The notes under the pieces are model-generated. The model searched no databases. It was not told the origin of the DNA and saw only the letters and a list, made by a program, of their open reading frames with translations. A DNA stretch of 64,000 nucleotides from a virus. The position numbers and the translations under genes were made by a program. Location: IMG/VR virus record IMGVR_UViG_3300045988_131485, one strand, 5' to 3'. Shown here in pieces: positions 11,302 through 13,016 of the stretch. Every line of letters starts with the position of its first letter. The first letter of the stretch is position 1.

Positions 11302-11317
11302 GCTAACAGCAATTTTA
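11302..11317 (+). repeat. T-type element core copy (GCTAACAGCAATTTTA), about 50 nt upstream of tRNA-Ser
   Basis: Matches the CGCTWACAGCAAT core that is shared with the tRNA insertions. Confidence 0.6.
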
Positions 11318-11365
11318 CAACTATCAAACTTTTACTTTGACTCAATGCGTCTCGTTGAAAAGCGT

Positions 11366-11456
11366 GGAGGGGTAATCCTAACTGGTAAGGAAGCAGTTTG
11401 CTAAACTGTTAGTAATCCGAAAGGGTGTGTGGGTTCGAGTCCCATCCCCTCCGCCA
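11366..11456 (+). tRNA. tRNA-Ser (GCU), class II, CCA encoded
   Basis: Acceptor ggagggg/cccctcc. Anticodon stem gcagt/actgt with loop TTGCTAA. Long variable arm with GAAA loop. T arm gtggg-TTCGAGT-cccat. G73 followed by CCA. Confidence 0.85.
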
Positions 11457-11495
11457 AGCCGCAATAGCGGCGAACTCTTTATCACCTCCTCTCTC

Positions 11496-11535
11496 TGACG
11501 GCGGGAAAGACCGCTGACGGCCCGGAAAGACGGGC
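11496..11535 (+). repeat. two tandem TGACG-stem-GAAAGA-stem hairpins
   Basis: TGACG GCGG GAAAGA CCGC, then TGACG GCCCG GAAAGA CGGGC. A third copy on the minus strand at 12344-12364 lies directly upstream of a tRNA. Confidence 0.6.
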
Positions 11536-11540
11536 GGCAT

Positions 11541-11651
11541 GGGAGCGTCCGGTGGCAGCTCATAACGTGTAATCGACGGTGGACACGCACAGCAATTTTA
11601 CCTTGAAAGTCTGCAAAACTTTTGCTTACGGTTCGACTCCGTAGCTCCTAA
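11541..11651 (+). ncRNA. tRNA-like element; the 3' half resembles tRNA-Ser(UGA), the 5' half is not foldable by eye
   Basis: Loop CTTGAAA, stem part ac/gt..gtctg, hairpin gcaaa-act-tttgc, T arm tacgg-TTCGACT-ccgta. gggagc pairs with gctcct. Contains a T-type element (11587-11600). No canonical D arm. Confidence 0.35.
11587..11600 (+). repeat. T-type element core copy (GCACAGCAATTTTA) preceded by the stem CGTGT..ACACG
   Basis: Same architecture as the tRNA insertions. Confidence 0.55.
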
Positions 11652-11861
11652 AAAACCGTCATCAATCTATAAGAAGGGTCGTGTGTGTCATGAAGAAGTT
11701 CCTGGCTATCGTTCTGTGATTCAAAGTGATCAGCGGCAGCGGCGTCCAGCGCCGGGTATGTGGAGAAAGCCATGAATAGAATACGAGACAAGCCCTAAGT
11801 CATCTTCGGATGACAGTACAGTAATGAATGCGACGATGAATGAACAGTAACGAATTGGGGC

Positions 11862-11877
11862 ACTAACAGCAACCATC
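11862..11877 (+). repeat. T-type element core copy (ACTAACAGCAACCATC); AATGCG lies 32 nt upstream
   Basis: GAATGCG..(32 nt)..CACTAACAGCAAC. Confidence 0.5.
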
Positions 11878-12141
11878 AACATTACCTGCTTTGGAAATGA
11901 GAATGTGTCCCGTACACGTGGCAAAGAGCCATTTCATTGCCATCAACTTGTCCTCGAAGAACGCCTTAGTGAAGCGCTGAGAGATGTCGTGCTCGCTGGC
12001 GCTACGGAGAGATGCCACAGCGAAATTGAGATCCAGGAGAGCCTTGCCGGTAGTGCGGAAGCCGACTGCACCGTTCTCGGTGACAGAGACATTGCACTCG
12101 TTATTCAGCGTGCTCTTGATCCCATCCATAAAGTTACTCAT
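11863..12141 (-). CDS. N-terminal fragment (first 73 codons) of a DUF2828/vWA (Ro/TROVE-like) protein, followed by a 19-codon non-native tail
   Basis: MSNFMDGIK..VTENGAVGFRTTGKALLDLNF..KLMAMKWLF matches my memory of the DUF2828 N-terminus, which continues as F-x-RD-x-RGG-x-GERR. That continuation is on the plus strand from 13083. RBS AGGAGG lies upstream. Confidence 0.7.
   Translation of the reverse strand: MSNFMDGIKSTLNNECNVSVTENGAVGFRTTGKALLDLNFAVASLRSASEHDISQRFTKAFFEDKLMAMKWLFATCTGHILISKAGNVDGCC
11923..11934 (-). repeat. left copy of the 12-bp inverted repeat AAATGGCTCTTT (codons KWLF)
   Basis: Exact reverse complement of 13071-13082. Sits where the protein homology breaks. Confidence 0.8.
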
Positions 12142-12184
12142 TATCTCTTACCTCCTATATTGAGATACCCAGGACACACTTTTT

Positions 12185-12202
12185 ATTTACTGTTGCTGTT
12201 TA
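12185..12202 (-). repeat. junction/T-type motif copy (TAAACAGCAACAGTAAAT) in the leader of the DUF2828 N-terminal fragment
   Basis: Lies between the tRNA at 12215-12338 and the RBS of the minus-strand ORF. Confidence 0.55.
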
Positions 12203-12214
12203 TGCCCAGAGAAA

Positions 12215-12338
12215 TGGAGCGGCAGGTAGGACTCGAACCTACGAATGGCAGCTTGGCTTCCTTGAACATTGCTGTTAGCGGAACTCCTCGTTTCGCATTG
12301 TAATAGGGCTGCTGTGTTGACCACTTCACCACTGCCGC
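12215..12338 (-). tRNA. tRNA gene (Gly-like, U73, CCA encoded) with about 48 nt inserted in the anticodon loop
   Basis: 124 nt. Acceptor gcggcag/ctgccgc, D arm gtg-aagtggtcaa-cac, T arm gtagg-TTCGAGT-cctac. Anticodon stem gcagc/gctgc encloses 55 nt that include AATGCG..CGCTAACAGCAAT. Confidence 0.6.
12265..12280 (-). repeat. T-type element core inside the tRNA insertion (CGCTAACAGCAATGTT)
   Basis: AATGCG lies 13 nt upstream, read in tRNA sense. Confidence 0.7.
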
Positions 12339-12343
12339 ATGAA

Positions 12344-12364
12344 GCTCGTCTTTCCGAGCCGTCA
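12344..12364 (-). repeat. third TGACG-stem-GAAAGA-stem hairpin
   Basis: TGACG GCTCG GAAAGA CGAGC, ending 5 nt before the 5' end of the tRNA at 12338 (..ttCAT|gcggcag). The equivalent context at 11535-11541 is ..ggCAT|gggagcg. Confidence 0.6.
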
Positions 12365-12477
12365 CAACCCAGTTCAAGATATTTGGGTTGAATATCTGGC
12401 GTTTACCGTCAGCATAGACATAAACGATCCCAAAGCCCTATGCCTATCCGCCCATTAGCAGGGACGGCTTCTGCTTG

Positions 12478-12594
12478 TGCCAGGGGTGGGACTCGAACCC
12501 ACGACCACGGGATTAACAGTCCATAGAAAGTTGCTGTAAGCGTCTCAACAAGACACGCATTAGTACGCGCTCTGTCCGACTGAGCTACCCTGGC
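12478..12594 (-). tRNA. tRNA-Asn (GUU) gene with a 43-nt insertion in the 5' strand of the anticodon stem
   Basis: 117 nt. Acceptor gccaggg/ccctggc, D arm gctc-agtcggaca-gagc, T arm gtggg-TTCGAGT-cccac. Removing 12523-12565 joins cg+gga to give stem cggga/tcccg around loop CTGTTAA. Confidence 0.7.
12528..12543 (-). repeat. T-type element core inside the tRNA-Asn insertion (CGCTTACAGCAACTTT)
   Basis: AATGCG lies 13 nt upstream. GCGTGTC..GAGACGC forms a stem. Confidence 0.7.
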
Positions 12595-12647
12595 GTACGC
12601 CCCGCCGTAGCGGGGCTATTTTGCATGACCCCTCTTATGTGCATTTT

Positions 12648-12815
12648 CTACTCAAACCCAGCCGTATAATACGGCAAACAGTTATACCGATCGGTTCGGC
12701 TTCCCGCACTATTATGGCTGGCGGCGAACCAGGTTTTCACCGTACTGTAAATTATCGGGGTCGAGATAATGACATACGGCAAGGAACAACAGACAAGCAA
12801 ACCCATATTCAACAT
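12648..12815 (-). CDS. possible small protein (55 aa) between two tRNA genes
   Basis: ATG 12 nt after A8-GGAGG. MLNMGLLVCCSLPYVIISTPII.. is hydrophobic at the N-terminus. This is the last part of a longer antisense ORF that I otherwise reject. Confidence 0.3.
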   Translation of the reverse strand: MLNMGLLVCCSLPYVIISTPIIYSTVKTWFAASHNSAGSRTDRYNCLPYYTAGFE

Positions 12816-12862
12816 TAGTCTGTCGCACCTCCTTTTTTTTGTAACTACACTAAGTAGCTTGT

Positions 12863-12986
12863 TGCAAGGAGTGGGACTCGAACCCACGACAATCAGTTCC
12901 CTTTTTACATAGCTGTTAGCGCAACTGGGGGAGGGGAACGTTACGCATTTTTTATACTGGTGCTCTACCAACTGAGCTACCCTTGC
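12863..12986 (-). tRNA. tRNA gene (anticodon not assignable; possibly Pro-like) with about 51 nt inserted in the anticodon loop
   Basis: 124 nt. Acceptor gcaaggg/tccttgc, D arm gctc-agttggta-gagc, T arm gtggg-TTCGAGT-cccac. Stem ccagt/actga encloses 58 nt that include AATGCG..CGCTAACAGCTAT. Confidence 0.55.
12907..12921 (-). repeat. T-type element core inside the tRNA insertion (CGCTAACAGCTATGT)
   Basis: AATGCG lies 22 nt upstream, read in tRNA sense. Confidence 0.7.
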
Positions 12987-12998
12987 ATGGTGGGAGGC

Positions 12999-13016
12999 TT
13001 TTTCATTGCTGTCTGC
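12999..13016 (-). repeat. T-type element core copy (GCAGACAGCAATGAAAAA), 12 nt upstream of the tRNA at 12986
   Basis: TATGCG-(10 nt)-CGCAGACAGCAAT, read on the minus strand. Confidence 0.6.

What the first reader, a model, noticed from the sequence alone, without database searches (positions are those of the whole stretch)
11302..13016. The tRNA insertions belong to one family of small elements (AATGCG - variable hairpin - CGCTAACAGCAAT), with extra copies upstream of tRNAs
Read in tRNA sense, all three insertions share the same architecture:
- acAATGCG-13 nt-CGCTAACAGCAATgtt
- ctAATGCG-13 nt-CGCTTACAGCAACttt
- aaAATGCG-22 nt-CGCTAACAGCTATgta

The GCG and CGC can pair to close a variable hairpin. 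In the Asn gene this is GCGTGTC/GAGACGC.

Further copies, all in the same orientation relative to the tRNAs, are:
- TATGCG-10 nt-CGCAGACAGCAAT, 12 nt upstream of the tRNA at 12986
- GAATGCG-32 nt-CACTAACAGCAAC at 11824-11877
- CGTGT-12 nt-ACACGCACAGCAAT inside the tRNA-like element at 11541-11651
- CGCTAACAGCAAT about 50 nt upstream of tRNA-Ser

A shared, oriented 45-60 nt module both inside and in front of tRNA genes points to a common mechanism. Candidates are a processing or splicing signal, a protein-binding site, an unusual promoter, or a miniature mobile element that targets anticodon arms. The alternative is independent decay.
Basis: seen in the sequence. Interest (0 to 1): 0.7.

Follow-up and report, generated by a model that had tools for sequence, protein, structure and literature searches.

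The report
Y-RNA docking module inside phage tRNAs
The short insertions in this phage's tRNA genes are copies of a conserved RNA module (a hairpin followed by ACAGCAA) that, in many different phages, lies beside the gene for a Ro60-like RNA-binding protein, so they most likely make these tRNAs 'Y RNA' partners of that protein rather than decay, known introns or mobile DNA.

Summary
In a 64-kb window, the motif CGCTAACAGCAAT (≤2 mismatches) occurs six times within 11.30-13.02 kb and once elsewhere.

The unit is an RNA helix of variable, covarying sequence. One end is flanked by 5'-AAU and by 3'-(Y)W-ACAGCAAW. It has two topologies:
- A hairpin inserted in the 5' strand of tRNA anticodon arms.
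- A stem enclosing the motif in leaders and UTRs.

About 100 related phage and prophage loci (Oscillospiraceae hosts) keep the inserts at orthologous tRNA positions.

The stand-alone form lies beside DUF2828 genes in six of seven cultured phages examined, in a giant-virus MAG and in bacterial contigs. My covariance model gives 65 hits in 422 kb of DUF2828 loci and none in 611 kb of control loci. The DUF2828 model matches Ro60 structures best.

In mycobacteriophage Rumpelstiltskin, one element beside the 'Ro-like' gene is a circular permutation of this window's tRNA-Asn-like RNA.

Best reading (0.6): the module is the docking site of a phage Ro60-like protein, making these RNAs tRNA-shaped Y RNAs. 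Excision by the neighbouring RNA ligase and kinase is not excluded.

The stand-alone form resembles Dictyostelium Class I RNAs, below Rfam threshold.

The parts
11297..11354 (+). Stand-alone ('type I') element in the 5' leader of tRNA-Ser. Stem GAGGCGC (11297-11303) pairs with GCGUCUC (11347-11353). Linker UA, motif ACAGCAAU (11306-11313). Anticodon-arm mimic UCAAA-CUUUUAC-UUUGA (11324-11340).
   Evidence: Covariance model R1 scores 52.6 bits (this copy is in the seed). Conserved in L009, L008 and L046 with covarying stems.
11366..11456 (+). Intact tRNA-Ser(GCU); context only, it carries no insert.
   Evidence: ARAGORN; Rfam tRNA 50.7 bits.
11541..11651 (+). tRNA-like RNA with an acceptor stem and a T arm. 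It carries the embedded ('type II') module: hairpin CGUGU/ACACG (11566-11587), motif 11589-11596, then an anticodon-arm mimic GAAAGU-CUGCAAA-ACUUUU (11605-11623).
   Evidence: R2 scores 22.1 bits, E 4e-4. The L009 ortholog shows compensatory changes: AGUGU/ACACU in the hairpin and ACGG/CCGU changed to GCGG/CCGC in the T stem.
11857..11912 (+). Stand-alone (type I) element. Stem GGGGCAC (11857-63) pairs with GUGUCCC (11905-11), followed by G. Motif 11866-11873.
   Evidence: R1 scores 36.8 bits, E 3e-6, and this copy is not in the seed.
12160..12207 (-). Short stem-loop in the 5' UTR of DUF2828. GGGCA (12207-12203), UAA, ACAGCAAC (12199-12192), 15 nt, UGUCC (12176-12172), then GGGUAUCUCAA and the ribosome-binding site.
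   Evidence: Conserved in relatives with covarying stems: GAACAC/GUGUUC in L009 and L046, GGACAC/GUGUUCC in L011. R1 does not detect it because its loop is short.
12218..12338 (-). tRNA-Gly(GCC)-like RNA with a 48-nt embedded module (12307-12260). Hairpin GCGAAAC/GUUCCGC (12296-12278), motif 12275-12268. The 7-nt loop AAGCCAA lies 3' of the insert.
   Evidence: Rfam tRNA 49.5 bits; R2 28.1 bits. The L009 ortholog has a covarying anticodon stem, GCAGC/GCUGC changed to GCGGU/ACCGC.
12478..12594 (-). tRNA-Asn(GUU)-like RNA with a 43-nt embedded module (12565-12523) between positions 28 and 29. Hairpin GCGUGUC/GAGACGC, motif 12537-12530. An intact GGA-CUGUUAA-UCC follows.
   Evidence: Rfam tRNA 46.3 bits; R2 36.6 bits. 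The insert sits at 28/29 in about 20 distinct orthologs with covarying lower stems: GGA/UCC, GGU/ACC, GCU/AGC. It is a circular permutation of the Rumpelstiltskin element.
12863..12986 (-). tRNA-Pro(NGG)-like RNA with a 51-nt embedded module (12955-12905). Hairpin GCGUAAC/GUUGCGC, motif 12916-12909. Loop AAAGGGA.
   Evidence: Rfam tRNA 49.8 bits; R2 18.3 bits, E 0.0065. Orthologs have canonical loops AUGGGGA or UUGGGGA.
12992..13051 (-). Embedded-type module in the 5' leader of the Pro-like tRNA. It is enclosed by the outer stem GGGAGG (13051-46) / CCUCCC (12997-92). Hairpin GCG..CGC, motif 13012-13005.
   Evidence: The L009 ortholog has covarying outer stem (AGGGGCUU/AAGCCCCU) and hairpin (GUGU/ACAC). 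The R2 hit is weak, 9.6 bits.
11863..12141 (-). N-terminal 73 codons of the DUF2828 (Ro60-like) gene, separated from the rest of the gene by the inversion and fused to an unrelated tail.
   Evidence: Pfam DUF2828 profile positions 1-52. Relatives have one uninterrupted gene.
12987..14420 (+). Remainder of the DUF2828 / DUF7788 gene (Ro60-like HEAT-repeat ring plus vWA domain). This is the proposed protein partner of the module.
   Evidence: Pfam hits at 1e-42 and 4e-24. phrog_850 'RNA-binding protein' at 7e-127. Foldseek top six hits are all Ro60/TROVE structures.
15697..18964 (+). RNA end-healing and sealing genes in the same gene string: RNA ligase (two ORFs, 15697-16248 and 16206-17105), nucleotidyltransferase (17215-18048), polynucleotide kinase plus HD phosphohydrolase (18050-18964).
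   Evidence: PHROGs and Pfam.

Best explanation
What it is. The 43-51-nt 'insertions' are copies of one RNA module: a helix whose sequence is free but whose pairing is kept. At one end of the helix the strand entering it is preceded by AAU, and the strand leaving it runs, after 1-2 nt, into single-stranded ACAGCAAW.

Topologies. The far end of the helix can be closed by a loop; that is the form grafted into the 5' side of the anticodon arm of three tRNAs, one tRNA-like RNA and one leader. Or it can be open; that is the stand-alone stem-loop form in leaders, spacers and the DUF2828 5' UTR. About 6-10 nt after the motif there is usually an anticodon stem-loop, either a real one or a mimic.

Proposed function. 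I propose that the module is the docking site for the Ro60-like protein (DUF2828 plus vWA) encoded next to the cluster. These RNAs would then be the Y RNAs of a phage Ro-like ribonucleoprotein. The tRNA or anticodon arm would be the effector domain, as in bacterial YrlA. The genes that follow are RNA ligase, CCA-type nucleotidyltransferase and kinase/phosphatase, which suggests a role in tRNA repair, tRNA surveillance or decoying of host anticodon nucleases.

Shown: the module, its covariation, its conservation at orthologous sites, its genomic linkage to DUF2828, the Ro60-like fold of the DUF2828 model, and the permutation relationship to a YrlA-like RNA.

Inferred: physical binding and the biological role.
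For: - Motif clustering in the window.
- 123 of 131 distinct insert-bearing tRNAs from about 100 related loci carry the motif. The hairpin ends 0-2 nt before it in 103 of those 123.
- A hairpin of ≥7 bp is present in 66%, against 6% in shuffles.
- Covariation is strong. The embedded helix is 99% paired, score 1.02 against 0.27 shuffled. The stand-alone helix is 100% paired, with all 7 pairs changed on both sides.
- Orthologous insert positions are kept, with covarying anticodon stems.
- Unbiased scan for three tandem ACAGCAA in viral contigs: of 12 noncoding hits, 8 have DUF2828 within the few kb fetched. Of 108 coding-repeat hits, none does.
- Model R1 gives 65 hits at E ≤ 1e-3 in 422 kb of DUF2828 loci and none in 611 kb of control loci.
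- Elements lie directly beside DUF2828 in Listeria phage AG20, Staphylococcus phage 6ec, Enterococcus phage H1, mycobacteriophage Rumpelstiltskin, Shigella phage Sf13 and Campylobacter phage CJLB-7.
- The DUF2828 model's best PDB matches are Thermus phage Ro60, Rsr, Xenopus Ro60 and human Ro60.
- The Rumpelstiltskin element at L256:3843-3960 has the same parts as the window's tRNA-Asn-like RNA in permuted order, and it partly matches Rfam YrlA.
- Precedent: Ro60 genes with adjacent Y RNAs that mimic tRNA (PMC4201824), and a phage Ro60 binding phage Y-like RNAs and host PNPase (PMC12135203).
Against: - There are no binding or expression data.
- The sequence proposed as Ro60-contacting in known Y RNAs (GNCGAA / GGUCCGA) is absent; ACAGCAA is a different motif.
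- DUF2828 shows no sequence-level match to Ro60 in the PDB. The model has only moderate confidence (pLDDT 71, TM about 0.45-0.55).
- Anticodon identity is conserved in the interrupted tRNAs (GUU; GCC or UCC; NGG). That is what one expects of decoding tRNAs, which would need the insert removed.
- DUF2828 genes usually sit in tRNA clusters, so part of the linkage could be to tRNA operons. However, 6ec, Rumpelstiltskin and the giant-virus locus have the elements beside DUF2828 with few or no tRNAs nearby.
- The seed sets for the covariation counts were chosen for complementarity.
Confidence: 0.6

Rival explanations
1. Protein-dependent tRNA splicing. The module would mark an intervening sequence that an endonuclease cuts out of the pre-tRNA. 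The phage kinase/phosphatase and RNA ligase would then reseal the nick in the anticodon stem or loop, giving ordinary Asn, Gly and Pro tRNAs. This is compatible with the Ro-like protein acting as the recognition factor.
For: - Anticodon loops and isotype identity are conserved 3' of the insert.
- An extra arm at 28/29-31/32 should be incompatible with ribosomal P-site contacts (established tRNA-ribosome structure; my knowledge).
- RNA ligase, polynucleotide kinase/HD and nucleotidyltransferase genes follow within 5 kb.
- Removing the insert gives a perfect CGGGA/UCCCG stem in the Asn-like RNA.
- 'Enigmatic introns' have been reported in Lak megaphage tRNAs (10.1101/356790).
Against: - No endonuclease candidate was found in the ORFs scanned.
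- There is no bulge-helix-bulge geometry.
- Joiner lengths vary (4-12 nt on the 5' side, 4-26 nt on the 3' side), so a ruler measured from the hairpin cannot define the exon ends.
- U33 is often missing from the loop left behind (AAGCCAA, AAAGGGA).
- The same module occurs where nothing can be spliced into a tRNA: stand-alone elements, the 5' UTR of DUF2828, and the permuted Rumpelstiltskin RNA.
- Phages with only stand-alone elements carry the same protein.
Confidence: 0.22
2. Punctuation signal for endonucleolytic processing of the polycistronic tRNA-cluster transcript (a host RNase or phage RNase site), with no stable protein partner.
For: Copies lie in leaders, spacers, trailers and a 5' UTR, always in the sense of transcription. 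The conserved single-stranded ACAGCAAW next to a helix looks like a nuclease determinant.
Against: - It does not explain why the element follows DUF2828 even where tRNAs are scarce (6ec, Rumpelstiltskin, giant-virus MAG).
- It does not explain tandem arrays of three elements with nothing between them to process.
- It does not explain the anticodon-arm mimic inside 41% of the stand-alone elements, against 10% in shuffles.
Confidence: 0.1
3. A DNA-level signal: a phage-specific promoter, or a site for the nearby tyrosine-recombinase-like ORF (shufflon-like inversion).
For: The copies are strand-specific, intergenic and followed by AT-rich sequence. The window carries an inversion in exactly this region, and ORF 9981-10898 has a weak core-binding-domain match.
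Against: - Stem sequences differ between copies but stay complementary, which is an RNA property.
- Sigma-70-like sites number 2 against 2.3 expected, and none lies at a copy.
- No RNA polymerase gene was found among the window ORFs annotated.
- The inversion breakpoints are a different 12-nt inverted repeat inside DUF2828-like sequence, not the motif.
- All 54 relatives that carry both parts of the gene are collinear.
Confidence: 0.04
4. A miniature mobile element (REP/PATE/MITE-like) that inserts into anticodon arms.
For: The unit is short, hairpin-containing and present in many copies. Anticodon arms are classic integration targets.
Against: - No target-site duplication or terminal inverted repeats.
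- Each copy has its own stem sequence.
- Orthologous tRNAs keep the insert at the same nucleotide in relatives whose DUF2828 protein is only 53-99% identical.
- No insert-free allele of the same tRNA was found.
- No transposase was found beside the arrays.
Confidence: 0.03

Closest known systems
Bacterial and phage Y RNAs of the YrlA type with Ro60 (Rsr) (Rfam RF02553; Chen et al. 2014, PMC4201824)
   Same: - ncRNAs encoded next to, and on the strand of, a Ro60-type protein gene.
- Built from a terminal stem with a conserved single-stranded motif plus a tRNA-like domain (T arm, D arm, acceptor).
- Often sit in an RNA-repair gene context.
- The Rumpelstiltskin element has the YrlA order T arm, acceptor hairpin, D arm, and partly matches RF02553.
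   Different: - The protein is the DUF2828 branch: Ro60-like only at fold level, with no TROVE Pfam hit.
- The conserved motif is ACAGCAAW, not GNCGAA.
- In this window the tRNA is not permuted. The acceptor stem is open and the docking helix is closed by a loop and inserted at 28/29-31/32.
- A full anticodon loop is retained.
- No window sequence matched RF02553 at E ≤ 10.
Thermus phage phiLo Ro60 with Yrl1 and Yrl2 (PMC12135203; PDB 9KOP, 9L5Y)
   Same: A phage-encoded Ro60-type protein with Y-like RNAs encoded beside the gene. It is the best structural match of the DUF2828 model. It was shown to bind its RNAs and host PNPase.
   Different: The Yrl RNAs carry the CGAA motif and no tRNA body. 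Sequence identity to the DUF2828 model is about 15%.
Dictyostelium Class I RNAs (Rfam RF01414; Kjellin et al. 2021, PMC7919456)
   Same: - A short covarying stem joins the 5' and 3' ends.
- An 11-nt motif (C)CUUACAGCAA(U) lies directly after the 5' strand.
- Variable AU-rich remainder, about 55-65 nt in total.
- The Rfam model aligns end to end with elements of Staphylococcus phage 6ec and Listeria phage AG20.
   Different: - Scores of 20-23 bits are far below the gathering score of 41.5. A giant-virus element scores 14 bits and the window copies are not hit.
- Class I RNAs are eukaryotic genes with the upstream DUSE promoter element, likely Pol III-transcribed, and are reported to be confined to Dictyostelia.
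- Their known direct binder is an RRM protein.
- Homology is therefore unproven.
tRNA introns and permuted tRNA genes (archaeal/eukaryal bulge-helix-bulge introns; bacterial group I introns; 'enigmatic introns' of Lak megaphage tRNAs, 10.1101/356790)
   Same: An intervening sequence in the anticodon arm of an otherwise good tRNA gene. Non-canonical positions and circular permutation are known in archaea and algae. RNA ligase genes are nearby.
   Different: There is no bulge-helix-bulge motif. At 43-51 nt the insert is far shorter than a group I intron, and Rfam finds no intron or ribozyme family. The insert carries a module that also exists outside tRNAs.

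Membership tests
Y RNA / YrlA (Ro60-associated ncRNA) | Encoded beside, and on the same strand as, a Ro60-type protein gene | tested here: met
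   R1 hits in loci oriented on DUF2828 are listed on the DUF2828 strand, except in the giant-virus locus L140. In relatives of the window the cluster ends 20-60 nt before the DUF2828 start codon. The Ro60-like fold of DUF2828 comes from Foldseek.
Y RNA / YrlA (Ro60-associated ncRNA) | Conserved Ro60-contact sequence GNCGAA(N)G / GGUCCGA in the 5' strand of the terminal stem | tested here: not met
   The conserved sequence is (Y)W-ACAGCAAW after the 5' strand. Reading the copies, I saw no CGAA motif at that place.
Y RNA / YrlA (Ro60-associated ncRNA) | tRNA-like domain (T arm, D arm, acceptor-like stem) | tested here: met
   Rfam tRNA hits of 46-50 bits for the three window RNAs. T, acceptor-hairpin and D arms are present in the Rumpelstiltskin element. 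Many stand-alone copies keep only an anticodon-arm mimic.
Y RNA / YrlA (Ro60-associated ncRNA) | Reaches the Rfam RF02553 gathering score (69 bits) | tested here: not met
   No RF02553 hit in the window at E ≤ 10. The Rumpelstiltskin element scores 21.4 bits over model positions 30-81 only.
Y RNA / YrlA (Ro60-associated ncRNA) | Physically bound by the Ro60-type protein | not testable with these tools
   Needs immunoprecipitation or gel shift.
Ro60 / TROVE protein family (for the partner protein) | HEAT-repeat ring plus C-terminal vWA domain | tested here: met
   The AF2 model (pLDDT 71) has a helical N-terminal part and an alpha/beta C-terminal part. Foldseek's six best PDB hits are Ro60 proteins over the full length, E from 7.5e-9 to 7.7e-5.
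Ro60 / TROVE protein family (for the partner protein) | Sequence-level match to TROVE or to solved Ro60 structures | tested here: not met
   Pfam gives DUF2828 and DUF7788 only. phmmer and a profile search against PDB sequences find nothing.
Dictyostelium Class I RNA (RF01414) | Short stem joining the 5' and 3' ends, with the 11-nt motif CCUUACAGCAA next to the 5' strand | tested here: met
   The stand-alone elements have a 7-10-bp stem, a 1-2-nt linker and then ACAGCAAW. The Rfam alignments show CUUACAGCAAU or CUAACAGCAAU at the same model positions.
Dictyostelium Class I RNA (RF01414) | Reaches the gathering score (41.5 bits) | tested here: not met
   20.1-22.8 bits in phages 6ec and AG20, 14 bits in the giant-virus MAG, and no hit in the window.
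Dictyostelium Class I RNA (RF01414) | DUSE promoter about 60 nt upstream; Pol III-type terminator; dictyostelid genome | tested here: not met
   These are phage, prophage and giant-virus loci, and the elements lie within operon-like arrays.
Archaeal/eukaryal tRNA intron | Bulge-helix-bulge at the exon-intron junctions, or the canonical 37/38 position | tested here: not met
   Inserts lie at 28/29, 29/30 or 31/32. The junction is a three-way junction in the 5' strand of the anticodon stem (by inspection).
Bacterial group I tRNA intron or small self-cleaving ribozyme | Matches the intron or ribozyme covariance models; group I introns are at least about 200 nt | tested here: not met
   Inserts are 43-51 nt. 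Rfam at E ≤ 1-10 lists only tRNA and noise.
tRNA (RF00005) | Cloverleaf reaching the gathering score (29 bits), with an anticodon loop | tested here: met
   46.3-49.8 bits with the insert treated as a local insertion.
Miniature mobile element (REP/MITE/IS200-type ends) | Near-identical copies, target duplication or terminal repeats, presence/absence polymorphism | tested here: not met
   44 distinct stem pentamers among 101 embedded copies. Orthologous positions are fixed. No insert-free orthologs were seen.

The most novel reading that the evidence does not exclude
The stand-alone form of the module and the Class I RNAs of dictyostelid amoebae may be one RNA family. Class I RNAs are abundant, are needed for normal early development, have no known function and are reported as unique to Dictyostelia. 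On this reading the family is the Y-RNA-like partner of DUF2828 / Ro60-like proteins and is shared between phages, giant viruses and bacterivorous amoebae. Class I RNAs would then work as Ro-like RNP components. The uncharacterised DdR-21 pull-down protein DDB_G0281243 would be a candidate DUF2828 homologue.
Probability: 0.25. Interest if true: 0.9.

Novelty: new variant of a known kind. Interest (0 to 1): 0.72.

Why it matters
- It would define a large, unannotated branch of Ro60/Y-RNA ribonucleoproteins. DUF2828 genes are present in 701 deposited phage genomes, including Felix-O1-like, A511-like and cluster L phages that are easy to handle in the laboratory. Their RNA partners are missing from Rfam and from the annotations I saw.
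- It shows a second way of joining a Ro-binding module to a tRNA. Here it is inserted in the anticodon arm of an unpermuted tRNA, whereas YrlA is permuted. That bears on how Y RNAs arose from tRNAs.
- It explains why tRNA finders miss, or mislabel as intron-bearing, many phage 'tRNAs'.
- The gene context is RNA ligase, kinase/phosphatase and a CCA-type enzyme. This makes a role in countering host anticodon nucleases testable.
- If the resemblance to Dictyostelium Class I RNAs reflects common descent, a 20-year-old question about their function gains a concrete hypothesis.

Tried and rejected
1. Recombination-site (shufflon) idea. It was prompted by the split DUF2828 gene and a weak recombinase-like ORF. 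I rejected it because joining at the motif does not restore the reading frame, and because relatives show the breakpoints are a separate 12-nt inverted repeat.
2. I first read P0001 (477 aa) as proof that the inverted form recurs. Its sequence shows it is only a shorter start call of the collinear gene.
3. Promoter. No sigma-70-like site lies at any copy. I also compared by eye with Bacteroidota -7/-33 elements, N4 hairpin promoters and rrn boxA/boxB; none fits.
4. Bulge-helix-bulge introns, group I introns, hammerhead, twister, pistol and hatchet ribozymes, preQ1-type pseudoknot, H/ACA, CRISPR-repeat mimics, integron attC, IS200/REP ends. Each was rejected by inspection or by the lack of an Rfam hit.
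5. I looked for an insert-free allele of the same tRNA to fix the exon boundaries and found none.
6. I looked for an endonuclease among neighbouring ORFs with Pfam and PHROGs and found none.
7. Sequence and profile searches of DUF2828 against the PDB found nothing.
8. I tried to learn whether Dictyostelium encodes DUF2828. Two protein searches returned no named amoebozoan hit. Avesson et al. 2011 and the 2020 Ro60 review are not held.
9. A literature search for the motif returned only siRNA noise.
10. My first permissive stem searches did not separate real sequences from shuffles. I repeated them on noncoding instances only.

Full report
**1. Observation**

The region holds one intact tRNA-Ser(GCU) (11366-11456, +). 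It also holds three minus-strand sequences that the Rfam tRNA model matches at 46-50 bits once 54-56 nt in the anticodon arm are skipped: 12863-12986, 12478-12594 and 12218-12338.

The shared block is not a chance pattern. CGCTAACAGCAAT with up to 3 mismatches occurs 34 times in 64 kb, against 16 ± 4 in shuffles. Six of the seven copies with ≤2 mismatches lie between 11301 and 13017. ACAGCWAY occurs 16 times against 6.9 ± 2.4, and 8 of those copies are in this 1.7 kb. Every copy is in the sense of the nearest tRNA.

**2. Anatomy**

Reading the copies together with relatives shows one module in two topologies.

- *Embedded form.* This is found in the three tRNAs, in the tRNA-like RNA 11541-11651, and in the leader at 12992-13051. 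The order is an A-rich joiner that usually ends in AAU, a hairpin, 1-2 nt, then ACAGCAAW.
- *Stand-alone form.* This is found at 11297-11354, 11857-11912 and 12160-12207. The strand just before the motif pairs with a strand 15-45 nt downstream that is itself preceded by A-rich sequence, often AAU. The motif therefore opens the loop of a stem.

Locally the two forms are the same object: a helix end with AAU entering on one strand and (Y)W-ACAGCAAW leaving on the other. They differ only in whether the far end of the helix is closed by a loop or left open.

The inserts sit in the 5' strand of the anticodon stem or at its junction with the loop. The Asn-like RNA has it between positions 28 and 29; the Gly-like and Pro-like RNAs have it between 31 and 32. 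The 7-nt loop and the 3' strand stay intact.

**3. Relatives**

- A pattern scan of viral contigs found about 20 near-identical relatives and one more distant relative, L009.
- A protein-guided scan with the neighbouring DUF2828 gene gave 80 viral loci (99-53% identity) and 28 bacterial, archaeal or MAG contigs.
- Two of those contigs are prophages in Hominicoprocola fusiformis and Dysosmobacter segnis at 95% identity. The host clade is therefore Oscillospiraceae.
- In nearly all loci the motif is enriched on the DUF2828 strand in the 3.5 kb upstream, typically 5-9 copies against 0-1 on the other strand.
Of the 131 distinct sequences, 123 carry the motif. The predicted hairpin ends 0-2 nt before the motif in 103 of those 123.
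- A hairpin of ≥7 bp next to the motif occurs in 66%, against 6% when the 5' strand region is shuffled.
- Orthologous tRNAs keep the insert at the same nucleotide while both the hairpin and the anticodon stem change by compensatory substitutions. Examples are GCAGC/GCUGC to GCGGU/ACCGC, and GGA/UCC to GGU/ACC or GCU/AGC.
- On alignments, the embedded helix is 99.4% paired, with covariation score 1.02 against 0.27 in shuffles and 29-52% pairing when slid.
- The stand-alone helix is 100% paired, with all seven pairs changed on both sides, score 0.84 against 0.22.
- The sequences in these alignments were picked for having a stem, so those figures overstate the case. The unbiased figures are the comparisons with shuffles: stand-alone stems of ≥7 bp in 63% against 18%, and the embedded figures above.

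This rules out independent decay and argues for a structure that works as RNA.

**4. What it travels with**

I scanned viral contigs for three ACAGCAA spaced 55-85 nt apart. This asks nothing about proteins.

| Class of hit | Loci | With DUF2828 in the fetched flank |
|---|---|---|
| Inside long stop-free frames (coding repeats) | 108 | 0 |
| Noncoding | 12 | 8 |

Of the four noncoding loci without DUF2828, one (L141) is a genuine array with only 4 kb of flank, and the others are a coding repeat at a contig end, an unrelated iteron-like repeat and an ambiguous case.

A covariance model of the stand-alone form (R1) gives these results:
- In the whole window it finds only 11296-11354 (52.6 bits; in the seed) and 11856-11912 (36.8 bits, E 3e-6; not in the seed).
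- It gives 65 hits at E ≤ 1e-3 in 422 kb of 40 DUF2828 loci. It gives none in 611 kb of 73 control loci that each contain three ACAGCAA.
- The loci with hits include contigs assigned to Bacteroidales, Christensenella, Obscuribacterales, Mycolicibacterium and Hyphomicrobiales, and a giant-virus MAG.

Cultured phages show the same pattern:

| Phage | Position of the elements |
|---|---|
| Listeria phage AG20 | three in tandem just upstream of the DUF2828 gene |
| Staphylococcus phage 6ec | three just downstream |
| Enterococcus phage H1 | four in the tRNA cluster around the gene |
| Shigella phage Sf13 | three among the tRNAs just downstream |
| Campylobacter phage CJLB-7 | two just upstream |
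| Mycobacteriophage Rumpelstiltskin | three just downstream |
| Vibrio phage Va3 | none found |

The model of the embedded form (R2) recovers four copies in the window: the Asn-like RNA at 36.6 bits, the Gly-like at 28.1, the tRNA-like at 22.1 and the Pro-like at 18.3.

**5. The protein and the bridge to Y RNAs**

- DUF2828/DUF7788 proteins are annotated 'Ro-like RNA-binding protein' in mycobacteriophages and occur in 701 deposited phage genomes.
- Sequence and profile searches against the PDB find nothing.
- An AlphaFold2 model (pLDDT 71, pTM 0.61) has Ro60 proteins as its six best PDB matches, aligned over the full length. They are Thermus phage phiLo Ro60 (E 7.5e-9), D. radiodurans Rsr, Xenopus Ro60 and human Ro60.
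- Ro60 proteins bind Y RNAs encoded beside them, and bacterial YrlA Y RNAs contain a circularly permuted tRNA-like domain (PMC4201824). A phage Ro60 binds two phage Y-like RNAs and host PNPase (PMC12135203).

The middle Rumpelstiltskin element (L256:3843-3960) reads as follows:
- [UGGACUCC] U-ACAGCAAU, then a 10-nt joiner;
- CCA-CUGUUAA-UGG-CG, then a short variable region;
- a T arm, an acceptor hairpin and a D arm;
- G-CG-UAC..AAAAC [GGAGUCCA].

Rfam YrlA matches its T arm, acceptor hairpin and D arm at 21 bits. Part for part, this is the window's Asn-like RNA with the acceptor closed and the docking helix opened. The shared parts include the split CG/CG top of the anticodon stem, the CUGUUAA loop and the GAGC-G-CG-UA joiner.

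The 'tRNAs with insertions' are therefore the unpermuted counterparts of a YrlA-like RNA. The stand-alone elements are reduced versions. 41% of them keep a 5-bp stem with a 7-nt loop of the form xU-NNN-Rx, against 10% in shuffles. The commonest loops are CUUGAAA, CUUUUAA, CUCAUAA and CUGUUAA.

**6. Mechanism and rivals**

*Best reading (0.6).* The helix plus AAU / ACAGCAAW junction is the docking site of the Ro60-like protein, and the tRNA or anticodon arm is the effector part.

The operon continues with these genes:
- a cysteine desulfurase;
- an RNA ligase, in two ORFs;
- a nucleotidyltransferase;
- a kinase/HD phosphatase;
- NAD-salvage genes.

From my own knowledge, this parallels the Salmonella rsr-yrlBA-rtcBA RNA-repair operon. 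A role in tRNA repair, surveillance or decoying of anticodon nucleases is plausible but is inferred, not shown.

*Main rival (0.22).* The module marks an intervening sequence that is cut out and sealed by those enzymes. It is not exclusive with the best reading.
- For: the conserved anticodons, and the perfect stem obtained after removal in the Asn-like RNA.
- Against: the lack of any bulge-helix-bulge geometry and the variable joiner lengths. In addition, U33 is frequently missing from the remaining loop, and the module occurs where no tRNA could result.

*Weaker rivals.* A pure RNase punctuation signal, a promoter or recombination site, and a mobile element all fit the data worse (see the Rival explanations section).

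**7. Resemblance to Dictyostelium Class I RNAs**

Rfam's Class I model (RF01414) has the consensus GaUcuC-CUUACAGCAAU-(AU-rich)-GagAuC-UG. It aligns end to end with the 6ec and AG20 elements at 20-23 bits, E about 0.06-0.3 in searches of 321-431 nt.

Class I RNAs are defined by a short covarying terminal stem and an 11-nt motif next to its 5' strand. They have been reported as unique to dictyostelids and their function is unknown (PMC7919456).

The scores are well below the gathering score of 41.5. The window's own copies are not hit, and a giant-virus element scores only 14 bits. This is a resemblance, not membership.

It is still notable for three reasons. The same stem-plus-motif layout lies beside DUF2828 in a giant-virus MAG (L140). 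DUF2828 also exists in eukaryotes; one hit comes from an algal entry in a eukaryote protein set, and plant papers mention the domain. One of four proteins pulled down with Class I RNA DdR-21 is uncharacterised (DDB_G0281243; 10.1101/2020.04.05.026054). I could not determine whether Dictyostelium has a DUF2828 gene.

**8. The inversion**

In all 54 relatives that contain both parts of the gene, the tRNAs, the modules and an uninterrupted DUF2828 gene are collinear on one strand. The window alone has segment 11935-13070 inverted between AAAGAGCCATTT (11923-11934) and AAATGGCTCTTT (13071-13082). This splits DUF2828 at the codons for KWLF. It may be a rare variant or an assembly error. It does not involve the motif.

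**9. Limits**

Nothing here shows binding, expression, processing or aminoacylation. The isotype labels rest on loop sequence only. The protein model is of moderate confidence. E-values from my models are rough because calibration was short.

Noticed in passing
window 11923-11934 and 13071-13082 (segment 11935-13070): A 1.1-kb inversion between a 12-nt inverted repeat splits the DUF2828 gene (N-terminal part on the minus strand, the rest on the plus strand) and flips three tRNA-like genes. All 54 relatives that carry both gene parts are collinear, so this is a rare variant or a misassembly.
   Followed up: partly
L135:8338-8547 (Staphylococcus phage 6ec), L134:7480-7626 (Listeria phage AG20): Rfam's Dictyostelium Class I RNA model (RF01414) aligns end to end with these phage elements at 20-23 bits (gathering score 41.5). 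They share the stem plus CUUACAGCAAU layout. Class I RNAs are reported to be unique to dictyostelids.
   Followed up: partly
L140:11478-11700 (IMGVR_UViG_GVMAG-M-3300023174-155): A giant-virus MAG has tandem stand-alone elements (two reach R1 scores of 40-41 bits; a third was seen by eye) about 400 nt from a divergent DUF2828 gene (23% identity by tblastn) on the opposite strand.
   Followed up: partly
window 11500-11515, 11520-11535 (+) and 12344-12359 (-): A second recurrent motif: GC-rich 5-bp hairpins with the loop GAAAGA, 5-8 nt upstream of the tRNA-like RNA and of the Gly-like tRNA. It is conserved in L009 (5490-5530, 6965-6985). Its function is unknown.
   Followed up: no
L097:8589-8724, L098, L102, L104, L053:8181-8313: A different 47-49-nt insert in tRNA-Leu(UAA) downstream of DUF2828. 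It lies at about position 32/33, is closed by its own stem (GCCUUACAU/AUGUAAGGC), and contains CAGCACCAAU rather than ACAGCAAW.
   Followed up: no
window 15697-16248 and 16206-17105: The RNA ligase (phrog_968) is split into two overlapping ORFs that match the N- and C-terminal halves of the family. This suggests a frameshift, a sequencing error or programmed frameshifting.
   Followed up: no
L258:3654-3806 (Campylobacter phage CJLB-7): The annotated hypothetical CDS QQV87870.1 (3693-3830) overlaps two stand-alone RNA elements (R1 scores 37 and 32 bits) and is probably a mis-call. The elements are unannotated in all six cultured phages where I found them.
   Followed up: partly
window ~12650-12815 (-), between the Pro-like and Asn-like tRNAs: A possible small ORF of about 55 codons with a strong AAGGAGG ribosome-binding site 12 nt before its ATG (12815-12813) lies inside the 268-nt spacer.
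   Followed up: no
protein P0003: A 785-aa database protein combines DUF2828/DUF7788 with a phage-integrase domain (PF00589). It is either a fusion or a read-through gene call.
   Followed up: no
L040 (=L009):5268-5386: The L009 ortholog of the Asn-like RNA has an 8-nt loop, CUUUUUAA, in place of CUGUUAA. This is either an anticodon switch with one extra U or a homopolymer error.
   Followed up: no
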